Positions 1 to 23,268 of a stretch of DNA of 27,319 bases are shown here, piece after piece; the first letter of the stretch is position 1, and every line of letters starts with the position of its first letter. The position numbers and the translations under genes were made by a program. The DNA is taken from positions 1 to 27,319 of the forward strand of contig CBFIGT010000020.1 of NCBI GenBank assembly GCA_965662175.1, written 5' to 3'. The notes beneath the pieces are model-generated. The model ran no database searches. It was given only the letters and a program-made list of their open reading frames with translations, and was not told where the DNA came from. The DNA is from Arcobacter sp. GTDB lineage: Bacteria > Campylobacterota > Campylobacteria > Campylobacterales > Arcobacteraceae.

Positions 1-3000
1 GAAATACAGTAACAAATAGTTCAAGTGGAACAAATCTAAATACCTTCGCAGATATTGTAACTATTGATATGAGTAGTTCAAGTGATAGTGGATTTTTAGA
101 TAGTGATAATTTAACAAATATTCAAAAACCAATTTTTACAGGAAATACAGAAGCAAAAGCTAATGTAGATATTTATGATGGTGATGTTTTAATTGGAAGT
201 GGTATTGCTGATGAAAATGGTAATTATTCTATTGAAAGCGATAGTTTAAGTGAGGGTATTCATACCATAAGTGCAAAAACTTATGACTCTTTTGGAAATG
301 AACTTTCAAGTGAGGTTTTAAGTATAGAAGTTGATATTTCAACATCATCAAATGTAGAGTTTAATGAATCTATTGAAGATAATACATTAAATCTTCAAGA
401 ATCACAAAACAGTACTATAAGTGGAAAAATAGAAGCTGAGGGAAGAGTTGATTCTATTGAGATAGTTGATTTAGCTGGAAATAAAGTTATTTTAGATGTG
501 GATAATATAGATATTCAAGATGATGGAAGTTTTTCATTATCAAATATTGATTTGACATCTTTAAATGATGGAACACTAAGTATGACAGTAAACTCAAGTG
601 ATAAAGCTGGTAATAGTAGTAGTCATGTTGAAACAATTGCAAAACATACTGAAGTTGCTATAGAGATTAACTCACCAATAGCTGGTGATAATATTGTAAA
701 TAGTGCTGAGTTAGCTAGTGTAGTAGTATCAGGAACTACAAGCAAAATTCAAGAGGGTCAGAGTGTAACTGTTATTTTAGAAGATAGTTTAAATAATAAA
801 ATTACCTTAGAAACAGAGGTTGATAGTGATGGTTTATGGAGTATTGATATTGATACTTCATCTTTAAGTGATGGAAACATATCAGTCAATGCTACTGTTT
901 TAGATATATATGGAAATAGCACAAGTAGCAGCACTAATTATACTCAAGATATTACTTTTGGAACTGTTACTTTAGATGAGATTTCAGATAATTTTATAAA
1001 TGCAATAGAGCATAATCAAGACTTAGAAATAACAGGTAAAACAACAGGAATAGAGAATAATCAAACAGTAACTTTAAGTTTTAATGGAAAAGAGTATGAA
1101 GCTTTAGTAATAGATGGATTATTTAAAGTTACAGTTCCATCAAATGATCTTAATAGTTTAGTTGATGGAGAGACTTATGTAGCTAATGTAAAAGTGTCAG
1201 ATTTAGCTGGAAATGAAGTAAGTGATAGTGAAGATGTGCTTGCTGATTTTACTATAAATAGTAGTGATGATACAAATAGTAGTGATTTACTTAAAGAGGA
1301 TAGTGATTTAAGTGCTAGTGGTAATTTCTTGAGTAATGATGATGAAAACTTGATTGTTACAAATAGTGGTTCTTATACAGGAACTTATGGAACACTTACT
1401 ATAAATAGTGATGGAACATACTCTTATAATCTTGCTAATAGTTCAAATAGTGTTCAATCTTTAAAAATAGGTCAAAATGTATCTGATTTATTTACTTATA
1501 GTGTAAAAGATGAGGCTGGAAATGAGACTAGCTCAACAATAACTATAAATATTGAGGGTACAAATGATGCCCCAATTGTAAATAGTGTTGATTTGGGTTC
1601 TATAAATGAAGATAGTTTTATTCTTATAACTCAAGAGCAGTTATTAGCAAATAGTAGTGATATAGATGGTGATAATTTAGAAGTTACAACTGTAAGTGTT
1701 GATGCTAGTATTGGAGTTATTGAAAAAGTTGGTGATGATTTTAAATTTACACCAAATGCTGATTATTTTGGAAATAATATTGAACTTAATTTTACAGTTA
1801 GTGATGGAGTTACAACAGTAAATCAAAAAGCTATTATTGATGTTAATGCTGTAAATGATAACTCTATTTTAGAAGGAAGTTCTTCTATATCATTTGTAGA
1901 GGGTGCTGCGGGAGTTGTTATTAATAGTAATATTTCTATAACTGATATAGATGATGTAAATATGGAAAAAGCTACTGTTTCAATTGATAATTTTGCAAGA
2001 GGTGAGGATAAACTTATTTTTGTAAATCAAAATGGAATTACAGGAGAGTTTGATTCCCAAACTGGTATTTTAACATTGAGTGGAACAGCTTCAAAAGAGG
2101 ATTATGAAACAGCATTAGAATCAGTAAAATATCAAAATATCTCAAATACACCAAATCTAAATACAAGAGAGATTAGTTTTGTAGTAAATGATGGAGATGG
2201 AAATAGTAATACAATAAATAGCCAAATAGATATAAGTGCTGTAAATGATGCTCCTGTAATTTTAGTAAAAGATTATGAAGTTGATAAAGATGAGGCTTAT
2301 TTAACTATTTCATTACAAGCTGTTGATGTGGATGGAGATGTGGCTTCTTTTACTTTAACATCTCTTCCAAATAATGGAACTTTGTATTTAGATAGCGCTT
2401 TAACTCAAGAAATCTCTATAAATACTCCTATTTCAAGTGATGGCTCTACTAATATCTATTTTAAACCAGATTTTGGAAATGATAGTAGCAGTAATGTTTT
2501 TGGTGAAAATTGGTTTGATGAAAATAGTATTAGTTTTGATTTTTTTGCTACAGATAATGGTTCACAAGGTTTAGCCCCTGTTAATTCAGCTCTTGCAACA
2601 ATTAATATTGAAGTTGATGATGTACCTTTTGTTTATAATGATACTACTTTAGAAGTAAGTGAAAATGATATTGGGGATTCTTCAAATAGTATTACAGGAA
2701 ATGTTTTAACAAATGATTATCAAGGAAATGATACAGCTGTTTTAAATGAAGTGACTTTTATAGCAGGTGATGAAACAGGAAGTGCAAATATAGGAGCTAC
2801 TACATCTACAGCTTATGGGGATTTAAAAGTAAATAGTGATGGAACATGGGAGTTTATACCTGATTCTAATTTAGACCATAGTAATGGTGATTTAAACTTT
2901 AGTTTTACATACAATATTAAAGATAGTGATGGAGATATAAGTTCAAATAGTGCAACACAAAATATAATAATCCATGATGGAAATAGTTTAAGTATAGGAG

Positions 3001-6000
3001 AGATAAGCACACAAAGTGTAGATGAAGCAAATTTATTAAGAGGTACAAATACAAATGAAGATGCTTTAAGTATTAGTGGAAATTTAAATGTACAAACTAG
3101 AAGTGATACTCTTGATATAAAATTTGATACAACAGCTACAAGCTTAACACATGCAGGTGTTCCAATTACTTATACTATTAGTGCAGATGGTTATACTTTA
3201 GATGCAAAAGCTGGTGATATTGAGATATTTACTGTAGAGATTAATAATCCATCAAATACAAATTTGGATGCTTCTTATACCTTTACTTTAAAAAATAGTA
3301 TTGACCATAAAGTTAATGATATAAATTTAGAAGAGATAGATATTCCATTTAATTTTATTGCAAGTGATATTGATGGAGATAGTGTTAGTAGTCAATTTAG
3401 TATAAAAGTTATAGATGATGCTCCACTTACAACAAATAGTTTCACTATTACAGAGGATAATACTCTTACTTTTAATATCTCAGCTGATATAGCAACAGAT
3501 GTATCTTTTTCTAATGTTACAAATGGAGTTGCATCTTATGATGAAACAACAGGAGTTGTAACATTTGTACCAAATGAAGATTTTAGTGGTTTTGAAGAGT
3601 TCTCTTATAGTTTTACAGATGTAGATGGTAATACAAATAGTGCAAGTGCAACTATAAATATATTACCAAAAGTAGAGAATGACACTATAAAAATTAGTGG
3701 TAGTGGAAGTGGTTTTGAAGATGAGTGGATTAGCTTAGATATAAATGCTCCTCAAACTAAAGACTTGGATGGAAGTGAAACTTTATCAGATGTTACAATA
3801 TCAGATATTCCTAGTGGAGCGCAGCTTCAACTATCCGATGGAACAGCTATTTCTATAATAAATGGAAAAGCTATAATAAGTGTGGATGAGATTGAAAATG
3901 TACAAATTAAAGCACCACTGGATAGTAATGAAGAGTTTACATTAAAAACTAGTTTTAAAGTAACAGATACAACTATAAATAGTGATGGTGATACTAAAAC
4001 AAATAGTAGAACATTTTCAAGTAATATTTCTGTAAATGTTACAGGTATTGCAGATGATACAAATATAGAAGCAAATAATGCAAGAGCAAGTGAGCAAACA
4101 AATAGTTTAGAAAATATTTTCAGTGTAAGTGAACTTATCTCAAATGTTAGTTTTGGGGATAGTGATGGAAGTGAAATACAAACTATCACAATAAGTGGTT
4201 TACCAAGTGGAACTGTTTTAGAGTCAAGTGTTGGGAGTTTGGATAATGGTGTTTTAACATTTGATTATAATGATTTATCTTCTGTTCAATTATCTTTTCC
4301 TAATGTTCCTGGAGATAATTATAGTTTAATAATAGAATCAAAAGCAGTTGAAGATGACAATAGTTCTAGTATAAAAACATCAACAACAAGTGCTGTTTTA
4401 ACTATAAATGCTCTAGCAAATGAAGTTGAAATAGAAGCCAATGATATAAGCACTTTAGAAGATACAGCTATAAATATTGGAATTAATGTAATAAATAATA
4501 ATCCCGATTTAGATAATAGTGAATCAATCACTGCTATTGAAATTGGTTTAATTCCAATAGGTGCAAAAATTTTAGATACAAATGGAGATATATTATTTAT
4601 AGCAAGTGAGGGAGATACTACTTTTACAAGTAATATCACAGCTCAAGATTTACAAGGGCTACAAATTTTACCAGCTTTAAATAGCAAAGAGGATTTTGAT
4701 TTAGCTATAAAAGTACAATCTACAGATAGTGATACAAATGGAGATGTTTCTACTTGGAGTAGGGCATATGGTTTAAATGTAGAAGTTATAGCAAATGCTG
4801 ATATTGCAAATATAGAGATAGATAATCAAGGTGGTTTGGAAGATAATTGGATTGCTTTAGGTACAAAAGTAAGTACAATTGATAGTAGTGAAAATATAAC
4901 TGTTTCTTTGAGTAATGCTCCTGCTGGAACTACTTTTAAATATAGCGATGGAAATGAAACTCATACTGTTTCAGTTTTATCAGAAACACAGGTTTTAAAA
5001 ATCGATGCTTCTTATTTGGATAGTGTTGAGGTTTTACCACCAAAAGATTTTAGTGGTGAAATAAATCTTACTATGAGTACACAAGTAGTAGATATAGATG
5101 GAAACTATCAAGATATAGATACATACACAAATAGCATAAATATTAGTGTGGAGGGTGTTGCTGATACTCCTATTTTAAGTGTAAGTAGTGCAATTGGAGA
5201 TGAAGATACAGAAATTCCATTGAAGATTAAATCACAACTTAGTGATATTGATGGAAGTGAAACTTTAGAAATTATTATTAGCGATATTCCAACAGGTGCT
5301 GTTTTAAGTGCTGGTGTTAAAAATAGTGATGGAACTTGGACTTTACAAGCAAGTGATTTAGAAAATCTAAAAATAACTCCTCCTAGTGATAGTAGTGAGG
5401 CTTTTGATTTAACAATAACAGCAAAATCAATTGAATCTGATGGAGATACAAATAGTGTATCTTTTAAACTTCCTGTAAAAGTTCTAGGTGTTGCTGAGAG
5501 TATAGAGTTAAGTGCTAATATTGAAAATCAAATAGTATATGAAGATACACATACAAATCTTGGTTTAAGTGCAATTTCTAGTGATACAGATGGAAGTGAA
5601 AAAGTTACTTATACTTTAGAGAATATTCCAAATAATGTAACACTATATTTAGTTGATGAAAATGGTAATGCAATAAAAGATGAAAATGGAGATTACTCTC
5701 CAATAGGTCAAATAAAATCTTTAGATAGTAATAGTAGCGATTGGGTTATAGATGGATCAGATTTAGCAAATATTGTGATGATTCCTCCAGCAGATTATTC
5801 AGGTGAAATAAGTATAAACTTTAAAGCAGAAGCATTAGAGAGTAATGGAAATCTAAGAGTTAGTGAAAAAACTTTAGAAATAGATGTAAAACCAAAAGTA
5901 GAGAATGAAACATATTCAAGTAGTGAAAGTGGTGTAGAAGATAGTTGGATAGAATTAACAGGTAATAATATTAGTAATGGACTAACAAATGTTGGGTACG

Positions 6001-9000
6001 ATAATGAAGAGATTAGTAATGTTGTAGTTAGTAATTTACCCCAAGGAGCATCTTTAGGTGTATATGATGGAAGCTCATATATTGTAATTTCTCCTGATAG
6101 TTTTGGAAAATATAATTTAACAAGTGAACAAATAGACGTAGGCGTTGCAATAAAAGCAGCGGAAAACTCAAATGAAGATTTTTCTATCAATGTAACAAGA
6201 ACAATTACAGATACAACAGATAGTGGTAATACCATATCAACAGATATTAGAAATGAAGATTTTAATATTAATATTAATTTAACGGGAAGTGCTGATTCTT
6301 TAGCCTCTTTTGAAGTTGAAGATGTAAATATAGAAAATGAAACTGTTTTATTAAGTGATGCTATTAGCTCTTATGCACATACAGATAGTGATGGAAGTGA
6401 ATCTTCTACTTATTTTGTAATAGAGGGAAATAGTGAAAATAATACCTCTTTTATAATAGAAAATGGGGTAAATGCAGGTAATAACACATGGATTGTAAAA
6501 GATATTTCTACAGCTGCTATAAAAGTTATCGATACAAGTAGTGGAGATGGAAATTTAGAGCTTAAAATCACTCCATTTGTAAGAGAAGATGATGGAAATA
6601 TTTTAGAAGATATAGCAAATATAGGTGAGTTTTCAGTTTCATATAATTTAAGTGATTCATATGATTTACCTGAAGATTTAGTTTTAGATATTAGTGTAAA
6701 TAGTGTATCAGGAGTTGAGGATAATACTATTAGTGATAGTTTACTTAGTGTAAATAACTCTGAAGATATATCTTTATCATATCTTGTTGACCCTATGCAA
6801 TTAGATAATGTTTCTTTAGTAATGTCAAATGATATTTTTATTTTACCAAATGGAACTTATATTACAGAAAATATAAATAGTATAAATCTAAATCCAAAAG
6901 ATAACTTTTCAGGTATGGTTCATGCAGATATAGAGGTTATAGGTACAGATCTAACAAATGGCACTTTTACTTCTGTAAGCAAAGGTGTAGATATTGAGTT
7001 ATCTCCTATTGCTGATGAAGTTGGTGTATCTAGTAGTGCTAGTGGTGATGAAGATACAATTATAGATTTACCTATTATCTTATCTTTTAAAGATAATGAT
7101 AGTAGTGAATCAATTGTTGATGATAAAATCAAACTTATCTTAAAAAATGGTGGAACTCTTAGTAGTGATAATAATAGTGATACATTTATTTATGAGGGAG
7201 TTGAGACTTTTACAAATGATAAGGGTGAAACTTTTGTTTATGATGTTTATAGTGTGAGTAAAGATGATTTATCACATTTACAATTTCAAGCACCTACTAA
7301 TAAACATGGCGATTTTAATATTGATGTTGAGTTTACAACAGTTGATACAAACTTAGATGAAATATCAGAGCCAAAAGAGCATAGTTCAAGTATAAAAGTT
7401 GTAGTTGAATCAAAAGCTGATGATTTTGATTTTAATCTTAGTAGTACTGCTGATATTGTTGTAGATGAAGATACACACTCTATAGATTTAGGTTTATCTA
7501 TGTCATTAAAAGATAGTGATGGAAGTGAGCTTGGATATATTGTTATAAAAAATGTACCAAATGGAACAAGTTTAAATCAAGGTTTTTGTGTTTATGACTC
7601 AAATAATGATACATCAACTTGGTATGTAAACTCTTCAAGTGCTTCAAATACAGCTTTAATAATCAATGAAAACTTTAGTAGCGAGGAGTTTACCCTTGAA
7701 ATATCAGCTACAAGATATGATTATCAAAGTGGACAAATTGATACTACAAGTAGTATTGATTTAGGAATTACAATAAATCCTATTGCAGATACAATTACTA
7801 TTCAAGATGGATATACAAAAGGTTTAGAAAATACAAATATTGATATGAATTTATCAATATCTTCAGATGATATGGATGGTAGTGAGAGTTTAACTATGAC
7901 ATTTAGTTCATTACCTGAGGGTGCATATATAAATAATGGTGATAGTTCTTATCTTGTAGACTCAAGTGGAAAAATCTCTATTGAGGGCTTAAGTATAAAT
8001 GAAGCTTCAAGTTTAACATTTACACCTCCATTAAATTTTAGTGGAGAGATTAATATATCTGTTCAAACACAAGTTGTGGATACAGCTGGTAATTTACAAG
8101 ATATATCAGATATTTTTAATTCAAATTTAGTTTTAGAAGTTAGTGCAACAGCAAGTGGTTTTGAGTCAAATAGTATGAGTGCAACAATAAGTGATTATGA
8201 GACTACACAAAATGGTATAAAAGTTGATGCATCAGTTAGTGGTATTAAATTAAATGATACAGATGGTAGTGAGAGTATTAATTTGACAATTAGTGGATTA
8301 GGAGAGAGTGCTTTAGTAACATATCTTGATGGTGGAGAGATTAAAAATGCTTCGCAAAATTCAGATGGAACTTGGTCTATTCTTTTAAATCCAAGAAGTG
8401 ATGATTACGAAACAATATTCCAAAATATAAGTATAAGTGTTACAAATGCAGATGATTTAGAGGGAGATATAACTTTTAGTGCAACAGCTTTTGAATCTAA
8501 TGGTTTGGGCACAACTATGATAAATAGTGTAAATGTTGCAAATTTTGTAAGTGATGAGGTATTTGAAAATGTAGAAAATAACTCTGTTTCTACTTTAGAA
8601 ACAGCTTCTATTGCCTTAGGTGTTGTTTTGCCAAATATTGGGGAAGAGAGATTGGGTGCTATTGAGATAGCTTTACCAAATGAGCTAACACTAAGTAAAA
8701 GTGATAATAGCATAATATCTACTAATAATGTAAAAATAGTAATAGTTGATGATAATGGAAATATTGATAATACTGTTCATCCTTTAGATTTAGATACAAG
8801 TGATACTATAAAATTAACTCAAAGTGAGTTTAATAGTTTAAAAATCATTACAGAAGATGGCTCTGTTGGTGATTTTGATGTAAAAACTACTTATACAGCA
8901 TTTGAAGTTGATGATAGTTTAAATACCATAGATGGTATTGATTCTGTATCTCACAGCGTAAATACTAGTGTTACAGTTGATGATAAAAATCAGATAATAA

Positions 9001-9512
9001 ATATGTCAGATAATGATAATGAAATTGCCACAGGTGATTTTGGAGATGATACTATAAATATGGGTGAGGGAGAGAATCAAGAGGCTTATGGTGAAGCAGG
9101 AGATGATACCTTTACAATTATTTTAAAAGAAGAGGATTTATTAGCTAATAAAAAAATAACTATTGATGGCGGAGAGGGTAGTGATACCCTAGTAGTGCAA
9201 GAAGAGTCAATCTTGGATTTTGATAGCTTAATAGCTCAAAATATAGAAAAAGTAAATATAGAGAATAATAATCAAATAGATAGCTCAACATTAGATGTAG
9301 AAGATGTAATAAGAATAACAGATGATGATAATATCCTAGAAATAATAGGAGATTCAGGAGATGAGATAGGATTGACAAATGAATCAGGAGATACAGCATG
9401 GGAGAAATCAGATGAAAAAGTAACAACAGATGATGGAGATACCTTTGATGTTTGGACAAATGATAATGTAACAGTTTATATAGATGAGGATATCACAGTT
9501 ACTGATTTCTAA
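1..9512 (+). CDS. Giant repetitive surface adhesin / RTX-like type I secretion substrate (Ig-like, VCBS-like, cadherin-like and DxDGSE repeats); 5' end lies outside the window
   Basis: The frame is open from base 3 (NTVTNSSSGTNLNTFADIVTID) into the ATG at 69, so the true start is upstream. Very D/S/N/T-rich. Motifs: Ig-like (SDSG..DNLTN...PIFTG; IAGDNIVNSAE), VCBS-like (GTYGTLTINSDGTYSY), cadherin-like NDAP linkers, 8 exact DxDGSE motifs, RTX-like nonapeptides near the C-terminus (GDFGDDTIN, GEAGDDTFT, GGEGSDTLV) and an acidic tail typical of a T1SS signal. Stop TAA at 9510-9512. Confidence 0.9.
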   Translation, partial: NTVTNSSSGTNLNTFADIVTIDMSSSSDSGFLDSDNLTNIQKPIFTGNTEAKANVDIYDGDVLIGSGIADENGNYSIESDSLSEGIHTISAKTYDSFGNELSSEVLSIEVDISTSSNVEFNESIEDNTLNLQESQNSTISGKIEAEGRVDSIEIVDLAGNKVILDVDNIDIQDDGSFSLSNIDLTSLNDGTLSMTVNSSDKAGNSSSHVETIAKHTEVAIEINSPIAGDNIVNSAELASVVVSGTTSKIQEGQSVTVILEDSLNNKITLETEVDSDGLWSIDIDTSSLSDGNISVNATVLDIYGNSTSSSTNYTQDITFGTVTLDEISDNFINAIEHNQDLEITGKTTGIENNQTVTLSFNGKEYEALVIDGLFKVTVPSNDLNSLVDGETYVANVKVSDLAGNEVSDSEDVLADFTINSSDDTNSSDLLKEDSDLSASGNFLSNDDENLIVTNSGSYTGTYGTLTINSDGTYSYNLANSSNSVQSLKIGQNVSDLFTYSVKDEAGNETSSTITINIEGTNDAPIVNSVDLGSINEDSFILITQEQLLANSSDIDGDNLEVTTVSVDASIGVIEKVGDDFKFTPNADYFGNNIELNFTVSDGVTTVNQKAIIDVNAVNDNSILEGSSSISFVEGAAGVVINSNISITDIDDVNMEKATVSIDNFARGEDKLIFVNQNGITGEFDSQTGILTLSGTASKEDYETALESVKYQNISNTPNLNTREISFVVNDGDGNSNTINSQIDISAVNDAPVILVKDYEVDKDEAYLTISLQAVDVDGDVASFTLTSLPNNGTLYLDSALTQEISINTPISSDGSTNIYFKPDFGNDSSSNVFGENWFDENSISFDFFATDNGSQGLAPVNSALATINIEVDDVPFVYNDTTLEVSENDIGDSSNSITGNVLTNDYQGNDTAVLNEVTFIAGDETGSANIGATTSTAYGDLKVNSDGTWEFIPDSNLDHSNGDLNFSFTYNIKDSDGDISSNSATQNIIIHDGNSLSIGEISTQSVDEANLLRGTNTNEDALSISGNLNVQTRSDTLDIKFDTTATSLTHAGVPITYTISADGYTLDAKAGDIEIFTVEINNPSNTNLDASYTFTLKNSIDHKVNDINLEEIDIPFNFIASDIDGDSVSSQFSIKVIDDAPLTTNSFTITEDNTLTFNISADIATDVSFSNVTNGVASYDETTGVVTFVPNEDFSGFEEFSYSFTDVDGNTNSASATINILPKVENDTIKISGSGSGFEDEWISLDINAPQTKDLDGSETLSDVTISDIPSGAQLQLSDGTAISIINGKAIISVDEIENVQIKAPLDSNEEFTLKTSFKVTDTTINSDGDTKTNSRTFSSNISVNVTGIADDTNIEANNARASEQTNSLENIFSVSELISNVSFGDSDGSEIQTITISGLPSGTVLESSVGSLDNGVLTFDYNDLSSVQLSFPNVPGDNYSLIIESKAVEDDNSSSIKTSTTSAVLTINALANEVEIEANDISTLEDTAINIGINVINNNPDLDNSESITAIEIGLIPIGAKILDTNGDILFIASEGDTTFTSNITAQDLQGLQILPALNSKEDFDLAIKVQSTDSDTNGDVSTWSRAYGLNVEVIANADIANIEIDNQGGLEDNWIALGTKVSTIDSSENITVSLSNAPAGTTFKYSDGNETHTVSVLSETQVLKIDASYLDSVEVLPPKDFSGEINLTMSTQVVDIDGNYQDIDTYTNSINISVEGVADTPILSVSSAIGDEDTEIPLKIKSQLSDIDGSETLEIIISDIPTGAVLSAGVKNSDGTWTLQASDLENLKITPPSDSSEAFDLTITAKSIESDGDTNSVSFKLPVKVLGVAESIELSANIENQIVYEDTHTNLGLSAISSDTDGSEKVTYTLENIPNNVTLYLVDENGNAIKDENGDYSPIGQIKSLDSNSSDWVIDGSDLANIVMIPPADYSGEISINFKAEALESNGNLRVSEKTLEIDVKPKVENETYSSSESGVEDSWIELTGNNISNGLTNVGYDNEEISNVVVSNLPQGASLGVYDGSSYIVISPDSFGKYNLTSEQIDVGVAIKAAENSNEDFSINVTRTITDTTDSGNTISTDIRNEDFNININLTGSADSLASFEVEDVNIENETVLLSDAISSYAHTDSDGSESSTYFVIEGNSENNTSFIIENGVNAGNNTWIVKDISTAAIKVIDTSSGDGNLELKITPFVREDDGNILEDIANIGEFSVSYNLSDSYDLPEDLVLDISVNSVSGVEDNTISDSLLSVNNSEDISLSYLVDPMQLDNVSLVMSNDIFILPNGTYITENINSINLNPKDNFSGMVHADIEVIGTDLTNGTFTSVSKGVDIELSPIADEVGVSSSASGDEDTIIDLPIILSFKDNDSSESIVDDKIKLILKNGGTLSSDNNSDTFIYEGVETFTNDKGETFVYDVYSVSKDDLSHLQFQAPTNKHGDFNIDVEFTTVDTNLDEISEPKEHSSSIKVVVESKADDFDFNLSSTADIVVDEDTHSIDLGLSMSLKDSDGSELGYIVIKNVPNGTSLNQGFCVYDSNNDTSTWYVNSSSASNTALIINENFSSEEFTLEISATRYDYQSGQIDTTSSIDLGITINPIADTITIQDGYTKGLENTNIDMNLSISSDDMDGSESLTMTFSSLPEGAYINNGDSSYLVDSSGKISIEGLSINEASSLTFTPPLNFSGEINISVQTQVVDTAGNLQDISDIFNSNLVLEVSATASGFESNSMSATISDYETTQNGIKVDASVSGIKLNDTDGSESINLTISGLGESALVTYLDGGEIKNASQNSDGTWSILLNPRSDDYETIFQNISISVTNADDLEGDITFSATAFESNGLGTTMINSVNVANFVSDEVFENVENNSVSTLETASIALGVVLPNIGEERLGAIEIALPNELTLSKSDNSIISTNNVKIVIVDDNGNIDNTVHPLDLDTSDTIKLTQSEFNSLKIITEDGSVGDFDVKTTYTAFEVDDSLNTIDGIDSVSHSVNTSVTVDDKNQIINMSDNDNEIATGDFGDDTINMGEGENQEAYGEAGDDTFTIILKEEDLLANKKITIDGGEGSDTLVVQEESILDFDSLIAQNIEKVNIENNNQIDSSTLDVEDVIRITDDDNILEIIGDSGDEIGLTNESGDTAWEKSDEKVTTDDGDTFDVWTNDNVTVYIDEDITVTDF

Positions 9513-9594: not shown

Positions 9595-9670
9595 GACCCC
9601 GTCGTCTAGTGGCCAAGGACGACAGGATTTCCTCCTGTAGACGTAAGTTCGAATCTTGCTGGGGTCGCCA
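9595..9670 (+). tRNA. tRNA-Glu (anticodon UUC), atypical
   Basis: Cloverleaf: acceptor stem GACCCCG/TGGGGTC, D-arm GTCT-AGTGGCCAA-GGAC, anticodon stem ACAGG/CCTGT with loop AT-TTC-CT (anticodon 9629-9631), 4-nt variable loop AGAC, T-arm GTAAG-TTCGAAT-CTTGC, discriminator G, encoded CCA. U11-A24, U13-G22-A46 and the missing position 47 fit tRNA-Glu identity. Confidence 0.93.
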
Positions 9671-9677
9671 ATAAGAA

Positions 9678-9702
9678 ACTACTATAAAATTGATTTATTT
9701 TT
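9678..9702 (+). repeat. 25-bp direct repeat, left copy (possible islet boundary)
   Basis: ACTACTATAAAATTGATTTATTTTT, identical to 10863-10887; starts 7 nt after the tRNA CCA. Confidence 0.85.
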
Positions 9703-9806
9703 TTACTTTTTATTTACAAATATAAATGTGTCATGTTATAATCTAAAAAATATTACAGAAAATATCAAACTTTACCTAACAAAAGATACTATTTATAAAT
9801 GTGTAA

Positions 9807-9938
9807 AATATTGAAAAAATAAAGCAAAACTCTAAAATTTGTTTTGTTGGTGATTTAGTTGATATCGACTCTAATGCTAAGTTATGTACTTTAGAATTTC
9901 CAAGTATGAAAATTTACAGTCAAAAAAACTTGGAATAA
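9807..9938 (+). pseudogene. Remnant of a calcineurin-like metallophosphoesterase (PphA/ApaH-like) gene
   Basis: Start-less frame translating NIEKIKQNSKICFVGDLVDIDSNAKLCTLEFPSMKIYSQKNLE*. CFVGDLVD resembles the GDxVDRG motif II, and LCTLEFPSMKIYSQ resembles the family C-terminus. The intervening catalytic core is missing. Confidence 0.6.
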
Positions 9939-9990: not shown

Positions 9991-9999
9991 TGTGATACT
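9991..9999 (+). promoter_or_regulatory. Putative extended -10 promoter (TG-T-GATACT) for the ncRNA
   Basis: TGTGATACT preceded by AT-rich DNA. The predicted start (~10004-10006) coincides with the 5' strand of the RNA's terminal stem. Confidence 0.5.
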
Positions 10000-10003
10000 T
10001 CCA

Positions 10004-10153
10004 ATAGAAAAAGGATTTGATAAGAATTAAGTAACAACTTGATTTGATTGAGATCCCAATCTCTATTGGCGAGGAATGATGGCATTGCAGAGCGTTTAGT
10101 AAGCCCTAGATGGTTGAATACTGTACTTGTCCATTCCCACTAATTTTTTCTAT
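10004..10153 (+). ncRNA. Candidate ~150-nt structured non-coding RNA, convergent with and overlapping the 3' end of the nuclease-like gene
   Basis: 10051-10140 is 41/90 G+C, far richer than the flanking intergenic DNA. Manual fold gives a terminal stem 10004-10012/10145-10153, hairpins 10024-10045 and 10046-10061, and a long irregular hairpin 10065-10144. Multiple G-U pairs favour the + strand. Confidence 0.65.
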
Positions 10154-10556
10154 ATGCAGTTATAATCCACGAAAAATCAGCCACAGGGTTGAGTACTAAT
10201 CTAAATTCTTTTTGATTTCCTAGTTTCATATAAACAATCAAATGCTGATTTGAAACCCCATCGTTTTCTAATTTTATTCCTCTAAAATATATTTCAAAGA
10301 TATTTATAATATCAATTGTTTCTAAATCACTACTTTTATAATGTCTTAATAAAATATGCATAAAACCTTTATTCTCATCACCTCTTGATAAGACTATTTC
10401 ATGTCCATTTTTTTCAAAAATGGCTTTTTCATTACTACCAAAGATAAAATCAATCATAATTTTTTGATGTGTTTTCCATTTTTTCTTTTTTTTAATAGAT
10501 TCAATTGTTTGTATTTCTTTTCGTAGTTTTTCAAGAAGGTTATTATATTTTGACAC
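10140..10556 (-). CDS. 138-aa hypothetical protein, putative BECR-fold (barnase/EndoU/colicin E5-D/RelE-like, PBECR-type) RNase
   Basis: GTG start. The motifs GDENKGFMHILLRH and C-terminal WIITAY resemble the G-x-x-H-I-x-x-x-H ... W-h-h-T-a-Y pattern I associate with PBECR-type domains. Basic N-terminal helix. The family call is from recall, not a search. Confidence 0.6.
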   Translation of the reverse strand: MSKYNNLLEKLRKEIQTIESIKKKKKWKTHQKIMIDFIFGSNEKAIFEKNGHEIVLSRGDENKGFMHILLRHYKSSDLETIDIINIFEIYFRGIKLENDGVSNQHLIVYMKLGNQKEFRLVLNPVADFSWIITAYRKN

Positions 10557-10585: not shown

Positions 10586-10594
10586 ATTGTAGCA
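10586..10594 (-). promoter_or_regulatory. Extended -10 promoter for the nuclease-like gene
   Basis: The minus strand reads TGCTACAAT (TGnTACAAT) about 30 nt upstream of the GTG start. Confidence 0.65.
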
Positions 10595-10862: not shown

Positions 10863-10887
10863 ACTACTATAAAATTGATTTATTTTT
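10863..10887 (+). repeat. 25-bp direct repeat, right copy
   Basis: ACTACTATAAAATTGATTTATTTTT, identical to 9678-9702; lies 13 nt beyond the marR stop codon. Confidence 0.85.
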
Positions 10888-10900
10888 ATAAACTATATTT

Positions 10901-17304: not shown

Positions 17305-19131
17305 TTGATAACAAAAATATTTAATAAAATTAGAAAAAACAACCATAATAAAACTATATTAGTAATTGATGATTCCATTGTTATTAGAGAGCAGCTTAAA
17401 GATATTTTTGAAATGGAAACTTATAGTGTACTTACAAGTTCCAATTTAAACACAGCACTTGAGCAAATACAAAATAATAATATTGATTTAATTATTTTAG
17501 ATGTAGAACTAAAAGATGAAAATGGAATAGATTTTTTAAAGAAAAACTACGAATATATTATTAAAAACTTAAAAATCCCAGTTATTATGATATCAAGCAC
17601 AATTAATACAGCTATTATAAAAAGAAGTATACAAGTTGGTGCTGTTGATACTATCTCAAAGCCATATATTGAAGAAGAGATTATTCTAAAGGTAAATTTA
17701 TGGATAGATTACAAAAGAAAACAAAATCAAATAAAACAAACTACAAAACTTTTAAGAGAGTATGAAAGTACTGTAAATGAAAGTTTTATCGTCTCTAAAA
17801 CAAATGCAAAAGGTGTAATAACATATGTAAATGAGGAGTTTTGTAGATTATCAGGTTATTCAAAAGAGGAGTTAATAGGCAAAAGCCACAGTATTGTAAG
17901 ACATCCCGATACAAAAAAAGAGCTATTTGAAGAGATGTGGCATACTATAAAATTTTTGAAAAAGCCTTGGAAAGGTATTCTTAAAAACAGGAAAAAAGAT
18001 GGTTCTTTTTATTGGATTGACTCTTTTATAAAACCAATATTAAACTCAAAAGGTGAAATAACAGAATATCTAGGAATAAAAAACGATATTACAGAACAAG
18101 AAAATGCAAAAGAGTATTTTAAGACAAAATTTGAGGGTTCAATAAAAAACTTAAATCGCTCCATTACCTTATCAAATGAGTATGAAAAAGCGATAAATGT
18201 AAGTAATATTGTATCAAGAACTGATTTAAATGGAACAATAACTTATGTAAATGATACTTTTTGTGAAATCTCAGGTTATGAAAAAAGTGAGTTAATTGGA
18301 AAAAATCATAACATAATCAGGCACCCAGATACTCCAAAAGAGATTTTTAGAGATATGTGGAAAACAATAAAAAGTGGTAAAGTTTTTAAAGCGATTTTAA
18401 AAAATAAAAGTAAAAACAAAGGGGCTTATTGGATAGATACTACAATAGTGCCTATTCGTGATGAGACAGGTAAGATTGTCGAATATATGGGTATAAGAAA
18501 AGATGTAAGTGAACTTTTTGATTTACATAAAGAGATGGAAGAGACTCAAAAAGAGATTATTTATAAAATGGGTGAGATTGGTGAGTCTAGGAGTAAAGAG
18601 ACAGGAAATCATGTAAAAAGAGTTGCTGAGTATTCAAGACTTTTTGCTTTTTATTATGGCTTGGCAAAAGATGAAATTGATACTCTTTTTACAGCTTCAC
18701 CTATGCATGATATTGGAAAAGTAGGAATTCCTGATTCTATTCTTAAAAAACCTGGAAAGCTTACAGATGAAGAGTTTCAAGTTATGAAAACTCATGCTAT
18801 GATTGGTTACAATATTTTAAAAACTTCACAAAGAAAAGTACTACAAGCAGCTGCAATTGTATCAAAAGAGCACCATGAAAAATGGAATGGAAAAGGTTAT
18901 CCTGAGGCAAAAAGAGGGGAAGAGATTCATATTTATGGACGAATTACAGCACTTGCTGATGTTTTTGATGCATTAGGTTCAAAAAGATGTTATAAAGAAG
19001 CTTGGAGTGATGAGGATATTTATGATTTAATCAAAAAAGAGAGGGGTGAGCATTTTGATCCAAAGCTTGTTGATATATTTTTTAAACATAAAACTAAGTT
19101 TTTAAAAATTAGAGATAAGTATCAAGATTAA
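17305..19131 (+). CDS. Response regulator with REC, two PAS domains and an HD-GYP c-di-GMP phosphodiesterase domain
   Basis: TTG start. REC motifs (ILVIDDS, LIILDVEL, ISKP); two PAS repeats (ITYVN..FC..SGY...ELIGK.H..RHPD); MHDIGK and HHEKWNGKGYP. Confidence 0.92.
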   Translation: MITKIFNKIRKNNHNKTILVIDDSIVIREQLKDIFEMETYSVLTSSNLNTALEQIQNNNIDLIILDVELKDENGIDFLKKNYEYIIKNLKIPVIMISSTINTAIIKRSIQVGAVDTISKPYIEEEIILKVNLWIDYKRKQNQIKQTTKLLREYESTVNESFIVSKTNAKGVITYVNEEFCRLSGYSKEELIGKSHSIVRHPDTKKELFEEMWHTIKFLKKPWKGILKNRKKDGSFYWIDSFIKPILNSKGEITEYLGIKNDITEQENAKEYFKTKFEGSIKNLNRSITLSNEYEKAINVSNIVSRTDLNGTITYVNDTFCEISGYEKSELIGKNHNIIRHPDTPKEIFRDMWKTIKSGKVFKAILKNKSKNKGAYWIDTTIVPIRDETGKIVEYMGIRKDVSELFDLHKEMEETQKEIIYKMGEIGESRSKETGNHVKRVAEYSRLFAFYYGLAKDEIDTLFTASPMHDIGKVGIPDSILKKPGKLTDEEFQVMKTHAMIGYNILKTSQRKVLQAAAIVSKEHHEKWNGKGYPEAKRGEEIHIYGRITALADVFDALGSKRCYKEAWSDEDIYDLIKKERGEHFDPKLVDIFFKHKTKFLKIRDKYQD

Positions 19132-22002: not shown

Positions 22003-23268
22003 ATGCAGTTTTTGACAAATAAACCAAAAGTCTATTTTAAAACTTTTGGATGTAGAACAAATGTTTTTGATACTCAAGTAATGATGAGTAATTTAAAAGA
22101 TTTCGAAATTACACAAGATGAAAAAGAAGCAAATGTAGTTGTAATAAACTCTTGTACTGTTACAAATAGTGCTGATAGTACAGCACGTGGTTATATAAAC
22201 TCTTTAAATAAACTAGCAAATAAACCAAGAGTAGTTTTTACAGGTTGTGGAGTTTGGACAAAGGGTGAAAATCTTTTCAAAGAGGAAAAAGTAGATTCAC
22301 TTTTTGGACATAGTGAAAAAGAGAATATAAATGAACTTCTAAAAAATGAAGAGAGATTTTTTCAAGCAGGTGACTTAGATCATATTGATGAAACAATAGT
22401 TGAAGAGTTTGTTGGTAAAAGTAGGGCATTTATAAAAATACAAGAGGGTTGTGACTTTAGATGTTCATATTGCATTATTCCTTAGGTAAGAGGAGATGCA
22501 AGAAGTTATAAAGAAGATAAAATCTTAGAACAGATTACAAAACTAGCATCAAATGGTTTTGGAGAGTTTATTTTAACAGGAACAAATGTAGGCTCTTATG
22601 GTAAGAAAAAACATACCTCCCTAGCAAAACTTCTTAAAAAAATATCACTTATAAAAGGTGTTAGACGTATAAGAATGGGAAGTATTGAACCTATTCAAAT
22701 AGATGATGAGTTTAAAGAGATAATCAATGAACCTTTTATGGCAAAACATCTTCATATTGCACTTCAACACACATCTAAAAAAATGCTTGAGATTATGAAT
22801 AGAAGAAATAAAGTATTAAGTGACTTAGAACTCTTTGAATTTCTAAGAGATAATGGTTATGCTTTAGGAACAGATTTTATAGTTGGACATCCAGGTGAAA
22901 GTGATGAGCTTTGGAAAGAGGCTATGGAAAATTTACATAAATTTCCTTTAACTCATGTTCATGCCTTTACCTACTCAAAAAGAGATGGAACTCCAAGTGC
23001 TACAATGGGTGAGCAAGTTCGTGGTGATATTGCGAAATTAAGATACAATGAATTAACAAAAATTATTGAAAATAAAAATTATGAGTTTAGAAAAAACAAT
23101 AAAAATACCTTAGAGATTTTAATAGAGCAAGAAAAAAATGGAAAGTATATAGGTTTTGACCAATATTTTAATCAAATAGAGCTTGAGAGTAGTGCTGATT
23201 TACTTGGTGATTGGATATTTTTAGATAATTACGAAACTAAGGTAAATGGAAATGTTGCAAAATTTTAA
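22003..23268 (+). pseudogene. mtaB: tRNA methylthiotransferase MtaB (radical SAM, MiaB family) interrupted by one in-frame TAG at 22483-22485
   Basis: TFGCRTN, INSCTVT, TGC and KIQEGCDFRCSYCIIP*VRG motifs. The frame stays open after the TAG and joins ORF 22675-23268 in frame, giving 421 codons before the final stop. Confidence 0.88.

What the first reader, a model, noticed from the sequence alone, without database searches (positions are those of the whole stretch)
10004..10153. Unannotated ~150-nt highly base-paired RNA with strand-diagnostic G-U pairs
Manual fold of the + strand: P1 AUAGAAAAA(10004-12)/UUUUUCUAU(10145-53); P2 GAAUUAAGU(10024-32)-AACA-ACUUGAUUU(10037-45); P3 GAUUG(10046-50)/CAAUC(10057-61). 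P4 is a long arm: AUUGG(10065-69)/CUAAU(10140-44), GGAAUG(10073-78)/CAUUCC(10132-37), GGCA(10081-84)/UGUC(10128-31), UGCAG(10086-90)/CUGUA(10121-25), CGUUUAG(10093-99)/CUAGAUG(10106-12), capped by the loop UAAGCC. Most of the sequence is paired. The G-U pairs would be A-C mismatches on the other strand. The predicted start site matches the P1 5' end. An alternative pairing, CCAATAGA(10001-08)/TCTATTGG(10062-69), could compete with P1. I do not recognise it as a known family.
Basis: seen in the sequence. Interest (0 to 1): 0.8.

Follow-up and report, generated by a model that had tools for sequence, protein, structure and literature searches.

The report
RNA antitoxin facing a BECR ribonuclease
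This is one copy of a conserved folded RNA, matching no catalogued family, that sits tail-to-tail with a gene for a predicted RNA-cutting toxin in Arcobacter-like bacteria and likely keeps that toxin switched off by binding it, and a toxin-free copy in a phage would serve as a decoy.

Summary
The structure is real and on the + strand (z -4.06 against -0.53). The conserved part is the 3' arm (10071-10138). The RNA faces a 138-aa gene (10140-10556, -) whose product has a predicted BECR ribonuclease fold and invariant His67/His72. A covariance model finds the RNA head-on behind the stop codon of every stand-alone homologue examined that has enough flank. In a new test set 17 of 23 loci hit, and the six misses are fusions or truncations. 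None of 26 loci with the domain inside long proteins hit. The stems covary. The apical 30 nt are 93-100% identical to the window in 13 of 14 loci whose proteins are 43-65% identical. No protein partner is conserved. The toxin gene is lost or broken beside intact RNAs in several lineages, never the reverse, and a tailed-phage contig holds a toxin-free copy. Best reading: a toxin-antitoxin module whose RNA likely binds the nuclease (0.5). Main rival: cis-antisense type I control (0.27). Expression, toxicity and binding are untested.

The parts
9595..9670 (+). tRNA-Glu(TTC), directly upstream of the inserted segment
9678..9705 (.). Left copy of a 28-bp direct repeat (27/28 identical) bracketing the ~1.19-kb segment that holds the module
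9991..9999 (+). Predicted extended -10 (TG-T-GATACT) of the RNA; start near 10005-10007; weak consensus in this copy
   Evidence: sequence; (homologues carry TATAAT-type boxes, several with TTGACA at 17 nt)
10013..10056 (+). Variable 5' hairpin of the RNA; absent in homologues whose promoter lies 7-9 nt before the core
   Evidence: (z -3.8)
10071..10138 (+). Conserved core: bulged, covarying outer stem closing an apical domain
   Evidence: (65.9 bits)
10090..10121 (+). Near-invariant apical segment with inner helix 10102-10105/10112-10115 and hexaloop 10106-10111; predicted protein-recognition surface
10144..10149 (+). U-tract after the core; likely 3' end (intrinsic-terminator-like), overlapping the last codons of the opposite gene
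   Evidence: sequence; (at least 5 U in 8 nt in 25 of 35 loci on the RNA strand, 0 of 35 on the gene strand); the consensus scan found no terminator
10140..10556 (-). 138-aa stand-alone protein, predicted BECR-fold ribonuclease toxin; GFxHILxxHY motif (H67, H72) and basic N-terminal patch K22-K28
10586..10594 (-). Predicted extended -10 (TG-C-TACAAT) of the toxin gene, about 30 nt before its GTG start; no partner gene between
   Evidence: sequence
10863..10890 (.). Right copy of the 28-bp direct repeat

Best explanation
The element is a conserved structured RNA locus facing a gene for a predicted BECR-fold ribonuclease, and it is likely the antitoxin of that protein, likely neutralising it by binding it through its near-invariant apical domain. 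Shown: a covarying core, its strand, tight linkage to stand-alone homologues, no conserved protein partner, and loss of the toxin beside intact RNAs. Predicted: transcription from its own sigma-70 promoter to the U-tract, and RNase fold and catalytic histidines. Inferred: the protein is toxic; the RNA docks on the basic N-terminal patch and blocks the active site; when transcription stops (plasmid loss, phage shut-off) the RNA decays and frees the RNase, giving addiction or abortive infection; toxin-free copies give immunity in trans, and the phage copy acts as a decoy. Antisense overlap with the mRNA 3' end may add a second layer.
For: Protein fold: AF2 pLDDT 92.7; best structural matches are CdiA-CT 7M5F (Z 7.2, rmsd 3.6, 96 aligned) and BrnT (Z 6.3), then other colicin D/RelE-type toxins; profile hit to 7M5F E 1.3e-4; G64, H67, H72 invariant in 36 sequences. 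Linkage: RNA in 17 of 23 newly found family loci, 3 of which repeat training loci; misses are 4 fusions and 2 truncations; 0 of 26 fused-domain loci. In 151 order genomes all 3 hits lie beside the gene; in 151 family genomes 16 of 17 hits do. No conserved protein neighbour in 21 loci. Covariation: 13 of 21 pairs with two-sided changes, 0/500 shuffles. Apical 30 nt 93-100% identical to the window in 13 of 14 class-A loci, against 14-58% at fourfold sites and 48-71% in the outer stem; automatic cis-antisense pairing does not require this. No pairing of the apex with its own mRNA elsewhere (mean z +0.1, 32 loci). Net charge +10.3 in 32 stand-alone against -0.3 in 29 fused domains. Toxin remnant, deletion or absence beside an intact RNA: L159, L160, L164, L166, L168, L169, L172, L173, L118, L137. 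Toxin-free copy (82 bits, 30/32 apical identity) near a tRNA gene of a tailed-phage contig.
Against: No expression, toxicity or binding data. The structural Z-scores are middling (7.2), and PBECR1 scores below its cut-off (19 against 27.6 bits). The core ends -2 to 15 nt from the toxin stop in 29 of 29 loci measured, the geometry of type I systems. The fused domains are mostly one clade, often lack H67, and their lower charge need not reflect RNA binding. RNA classes following the protein tree (3 changes, the minimum) is expected from linkage alone. Orphan copies are frequent (5 class-E copies in 3 genomes with no toxin hit), which also fits a function independent of the toxin. The phage contig is about 44% complete. 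Weak short-frame protein hits were not checked for the RNA.
Confidence: 0.5

Rival explanations
1. Type I system: the RNA pairs with the overlapping 3' end of the convergent toxin mRNA and triggers its decay (txpA/RatA or yonT/SR6 style); the structure serves stability and termination.
For: Invariant head-on geometry, stop codon within -2 to 15 nt of the core. No terminator-like U-tract on the toxin strand after the core (0 of 35), so the mRNA probably runs across the RNA locus. A type I system with an RNA antitoxin is reported in Campylobacter (cjrA; passages).
Against: Cis pairing is automatic and does not explain a near-invariant apical 30 nt while stems and fourfold sites turn over. It does not explain the basic patch on stand-alone proteins. 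Intact orphans, including in a phage, are retained.
Confidence: 0.27
2. The RNA is a cofactor, sensor or guide of the nuclease, or has its own function with another ligand, and does not inhibit the protein.
For: Extreme apical conservation. Many orphans keep promoters, three of them in one genome. One copy lies in a phage tRNA region.
Against: No variable guide-like segment. No similarity or complementarity to rRNA or tRNA above shuffles. No intact stand-alone gene was seen without the RNA, whereas the gene is lost repeatedly, the polarity expected of an antitoxin.
Confidence: 0.18
3. The hairpin is only a transcription terminator or insulator that travels with the gene.
For: Hairpin plus U-tract between convergent units; orphan L118 lies between convergent genes.
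Against: It has its own promoter 7-9 nt before the core in L023, L045, L073 and L078. G-U pairs and the U-tract are on the strand opposite the gene. The loop sequence is conserved.
Confidence: 0.05

Closest known systems
Type III toxin-antitoxin systems ToxIN, CptIN, TenpIN (PMC5086642, passages read)
   Same: Predicted RNase plus a structured RNA and no protein antitoxin; found on plasmids, prophages and chromosomes.
   Different: Single copy, not tandem repeats; own promoter on the opposite strand, not upstream in a bicistron; BECR fold, not MazF/Kid fold; no pseudoknot shown.
AbiF/AbiFr (PMC12737573, passages read)
   Same: Single structured RNA with conserved bulges as the proposed antitoxin of an RNase.
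   Different: AbiF is a HEPN protein; here the fold is BECR and the RNA is convergent.
Type I convergent systems (txpA/RatA recalled; yonT/SR6, abstract start in listing, PMC5848175) and C. jejuni cjrA/cjpT (passages in PMC7826846 and PMC10470494; primary paper not held)
   Same: Tail-to-tail geometry with a short 3' overlap.
   Different: The toxin is a 138-aa enzyme fold, not a small hydrophobic peptide, and the RNA sequence is strongly conserved. pVir 81-176 holds neither this RNA nor this protein.
CdiA-CT of Serratia marcescens BWH57 (7M5F), BrnT and PBECR domains (PMC8616854 passages; bioRxiv 10.64898/2026.08.28.747851 passages)
   Same: BECR fold and histidine motif.
   Different: These are controlled by protein immunity factors or antitoxins, or sit in long polyvalent proteins. 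The BECR preprint has no occurrence of 'non-coding', 'ncRNA' or 'Campylobacter'.
Pseudo-ToxI of phage PhiTE (PMC3475682, abstract read)
   Same: Phage-borne, toxin-free copy of an RNA antitoxin.
   Different: Here it is a single near-perfect copy, not an expandable repeat; decoy activity is untested.

Membership tests
Any Rfam family | Score at or above gathering threshold | tested here: not met
Type III TA (ToxIN/CptIN/TenpIN) | Antitoxin is an array of tandem repeats | tested here: not met
   one copy per toxin-bearing locus
Type III TA (ToxIN/CptIN/TenpIN) | RNA upstream, co-transcribed, terminator before the toxin gene | tested here: not met
   RNA is downstream on the opposite strand in all linked loci
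Type III TA (ToxIN/CptIN/TenpIN) | Toxin of MazF/Kid-like fold | tested here: inconclusive
   best matches are BECR toxins; MazF-type chains were not among the listed rows, which does not exclude them
Type III TA (ToxIN/CptIN/TenpIN) | RNA binds and inhibits the toxin protein | not testable with these tools
   indirect only:
Type III TA (ToxIN/CptIN/TenpIN) | Pseudoknotted antitoxin | not tested
   only nested structures were counted
Type I TA | Antisense RNA overlapping the toxin transcript | tested here: inconclusive
   convergent, stop within -2 to 15 nt of the core; transcript ends unknown
Type I TA | RNA lowers toxin mRNA or translation | not testable with these tools
   no pairing to the 5' region or coding sequence outside the overlap
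cjrA/cjpT of pVir | Homology to sequences on pVir 81-176 | tested here: not met
   no RNA-model hit, no protein-profile hit
BECR RNase superfamily (protein) | Helix plus meander beta-sheet like colicin D/RelE/CdiA-CT | tested here: met
   (Z 7.2, rmsd 3.6, 96 aligned); predicted model, middling Z
BECR RNase superfamily (protein) | Conserved catalytic-type histidines | tested here: met
   H67 and H72 invariant in 36 sequences; activity not tested
PBECR1 (PF18809) | Pfam gathering score 27.6 bits | tested here: not met
   19 bits, E 0.002; 13 of 36 members hit at E up to 0.1

The most novel reading that the evidence does not exclude
A new class of protein-binding RNA antitoxin, the first for a BECR-fold RNase: a single, independently transcribed, convergent hairpin with sequence classes that set specificity. 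It defends Campylobacterota against phages, and phages and hosts carry toxin-free copies as decoys or immunity.
Probability: 0.35. Interest if true: 0.85.

Novelty: new variant of a known kind. Interest (0 to 1): 0.72.

Why it matters
The RNA antitoxins that bind proteins in the papers I read act on MazF-fold or HEPN toxins. One that tames a BECR/RelE-type RNase would extend that mechanism to a far larger toxin superfamily, in a new gene layout. The module is two short genes, so it is directly testable. Natural variants (at least five apical classes, toxin-free copies, a phage copy) supply ready specificity and counter-defence tests. It also adds a covarying RNA family to Campylobacterota.

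Tried and rejected
Rfam: no family. BLAST-type DNA searches found only short AT-rich chance hits in 60 relatives, plasmids and phages, and nothing for the phage copy. MITE with 9-bp terminal inverted repeats: single copy in the genome, and the repeat is not conserved. Integron attC, and hammerhead or hairpin ribozyme: by eye the recalled consensus motifs are absent; not tested by tool beyond Rfam. tRNA or rRNA mimic or antisense: longest shared words are 6-8 nt, no better than shuffles (rRNA operon from a same-genus genome). Trans pairing to its own mRNA: none. P1 switch: not conserved. cjrA/cjpT: not homologous. PADLOC: no hit for the window protein. Sequencing runs: no RNA holder listed; contigs of two possible RNA runs could not show expression. 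One viral pattern gave 6 chance hits inside other sequences. Two weak model hits inside coding genes (L170, L171; E 9e-4 and 0.008) were dropped as false. RNA model over a class-wide sample: 1 of 151. Earlier scan findings: nothing. Literature searches for this family found none; subscription papers and motif-catalogue supplements outside Rfam were not seen.

Full report
Observation. The 150 nt fold at z -4.06 on the + strand and -0.53 on the - strand. Rfam has no match. Most of the z-score comes from a 5' hairpin at 10013-10056 (z -3.8); the 3' arm alone scores -1.37. The case for a real RNA therefore rests on homologues, not on this fold.

Context. The element follows tRNA-Glu inside a ~1.19-kb segment bracketed by a 28-bp direct repeat. 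The seven other genomes of the genus carry different DNA behind this tRNA. Facing it is a 138-aa ORF (10140-10556, -). A near-identical locus is in a MAG labelled Campylobacteraceae, and close protein relatives are labelled Arcobacter; I infer an Arcobacter-like host.

The protein. A profile of 36 relatives has G64, H67 and H72 invariant and hits the CdiA toxin 7M5F at E 1.3e-4. The AlphaFold model (pLDDT 92.7) matches 7M5F (Z 7.2, rmsd 3.6, 96 aligned) and BrnT (Z 6.3), followed by colicin D and RelE-type toxins. 7M5F is described as BECR fold (PMC8616854, passages). The Z values are middling and PBECR1 is below cut-off, so 'BECR ribonuclease' is a prediction. In 21 loci the gene stands alone with no conserved protein neighbour. 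Its neighbours include relaxases, integrases, terminase and portal genes, and other TA-type genes (my reading of the translations), and one copy is on an Aliarcobacter plasmid.

The RNA family. DNA searches missed it, but the DNA behind the stop codons of homologous genes holds the same hairpin on the opposite strand. On a MAFFT alignment of 21 copies, 13 of 21 pairs change on both sides, with 0 of 500 shuffles as high and slid controls far lower. A model-fitted alignment of 35 copies gives 92.9% paired cells. These counts do not correct for relatedness. P1 is not conserved (p 0.60). Promoter-like boxes upstream score above shuffles in 24 of 32 loci, and in four loci the -10 lies 7-9 nt before the core. 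The 5' hairpin is thus optional and the ~70-nt core is the unit. A U-rich tail follows on the RNA strand in 25 of 35 loci and on the gene strand in 0 of 35.

Linkage. The model hit 25 of 31 first-round sources, 21 of them training sequences. The misses were an N-terminal fragment, four long-frame or weak protein hits, and pVir. In 23 family loci found afterwards with a wider profile, 17 hit, 3 of them repeats of training loci. The misses were four fusions in 908-1632-aa frames and two contig-end truncations. None of 26 loci with the domain in frames of 221-1554 aa hit. Searching by RNA alone gave 3 of 151 order genomes, all beside the gene; 17 hits in 151 family genomes, 16 beside the gene; 1 of 151 in a class sample; 2 of 151 in a second family, both beside the gene; and 15 hits in 151 genomes of a third family. 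Of those 15, two were dropped as false, five lie beside an intact or contig-cut gene, two beside remnants, one where the gene is missing from a syntenic site, and five are promoter-bearing orphans in three genomes without a toxin hit. Weak short-frame protein hits were not examined. No intact stand-alone gene with flank lacked the RNA. Loss runs one way, as expected if the protein is harmful without the RNA.

How the RNA acts. The apical 30 nt are 93-100% identical to the window in 13 of 14 class-A loci whose proteins are 43-65% identical. In the same loci fourfold sites are 14-58% identical and the outer stems 48-71% identical. A cis-antisense RNA pairs with its target whatever its sequence, so this points to recognition of a shape or sequence. 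The apex does not pair with its own mRNA or resemble rRNA or tRNA. Stand-alone proteins carry a Lys/Arg patch and net charge +10.3, against -0.3 for fused domains (the fused rows are mostly one clade). I therefore favour binding to the protein. Against this, the stop codon lies -2 to 15 nt from the core in 29 of 29 loci, the layout of type I systems, and the mRNA probably crosses the RNA locus. Both layers may operate.

Phage copies. Of five viral-contig loci with the RNA, four have the gene. The fifth (L137, 82 bits, 30/32 apical identity) lies in an 83-kb contig with capsid, portal, terminase, tail and ribonucleotide reductase genes, 1.2 kb from a tRNA-Met. That contig has no toxin hit and is about 44% complete. 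Another orphan abuts a P22-like portal gene in a genome with no toxin hit. This parallels pseudo-ToxI of phage PhiTE (PMC3475682, abstract); decoy function is inferred.

Comparison. It would work like type III systems and AbiF/AbiFr (passages), but it fails the repeat and operon criteria, so it is not filed as ToxIN, CptIN or TenpIN. It is not cjrA/cjpT (the primary paper was not held). Six searches and passages of a 2026 BECR classification preprint did not show this family; subscription papers and supplements were not seen.

Verdict. A real, covarying RNA family tied to a stand-alone BECR-fold gene. RNA antitoxin overall about 0.77 (protein-binding 0.5, antisense 0.27), other functional RNA 0.18, terminator only 0.05. 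New variant of a known kind; interest 0.72. Nothing about expression or activity is shown yet.

Noticed in passing
window 9807-9938 (+): A 43-codon frame without a start codon, reading ICFVGDLVD, behind a strong promoter-like site at 9713-9742. It looks like a metallophosphoesterase remnant (motif recalled); no Pfam hit.
   Followed up: partly
window 9678-9705 and 10863-10890: 28-bp direct repeat around the module, not made of the tRNA 3' end; no integrase in the segment.
   Followed up: partly
window 22003-23268 (+): A UPF0004/radical SAM methylthiotransferase-like gene appears as two ORFs (160 and 197 aa); frameshift or assembly error.
   Followed up: no
window 69-9512 (+): 3147-aa acidic adhesin-like protein with Ig and cadherin-like repeats.
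   Followed up: no
L146 15800-17550 (G745): Phage non-coding region with tRNA-Met, the orphan RNA, a degenerate tRNA-like stretch near 17470-17545 and other unannotated intergenic DNA, next to an outer-membrane beta-barrel gene.
   Followed up: partly
L123 2-1996 and 3766-3863 (G021): The orphan RNA lies on a prophage-like contig that also encodes a long protein with a PBECR1 domain.
   Followed up: partly
L168, L172, L173 (G881): Three promoter-bearing orphan copies in one genome, beside HipA-like and nucleotidyltransferase-like genes (my reading of the translations) and a shared 135-139-aa gene also found next to L167.
   Followed up: no
L066, L068, L069: A divergent RNA class with two similar CC(C/U)AAGUGG motifs in the apex, tied to one protein clade.
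   Followed up: partly
L081-L106: The same domain occurs inside long proteins of related families, usually with H67 replaced by Lys or Arg and without the basic patch or the RNA.
   Followed up: partly
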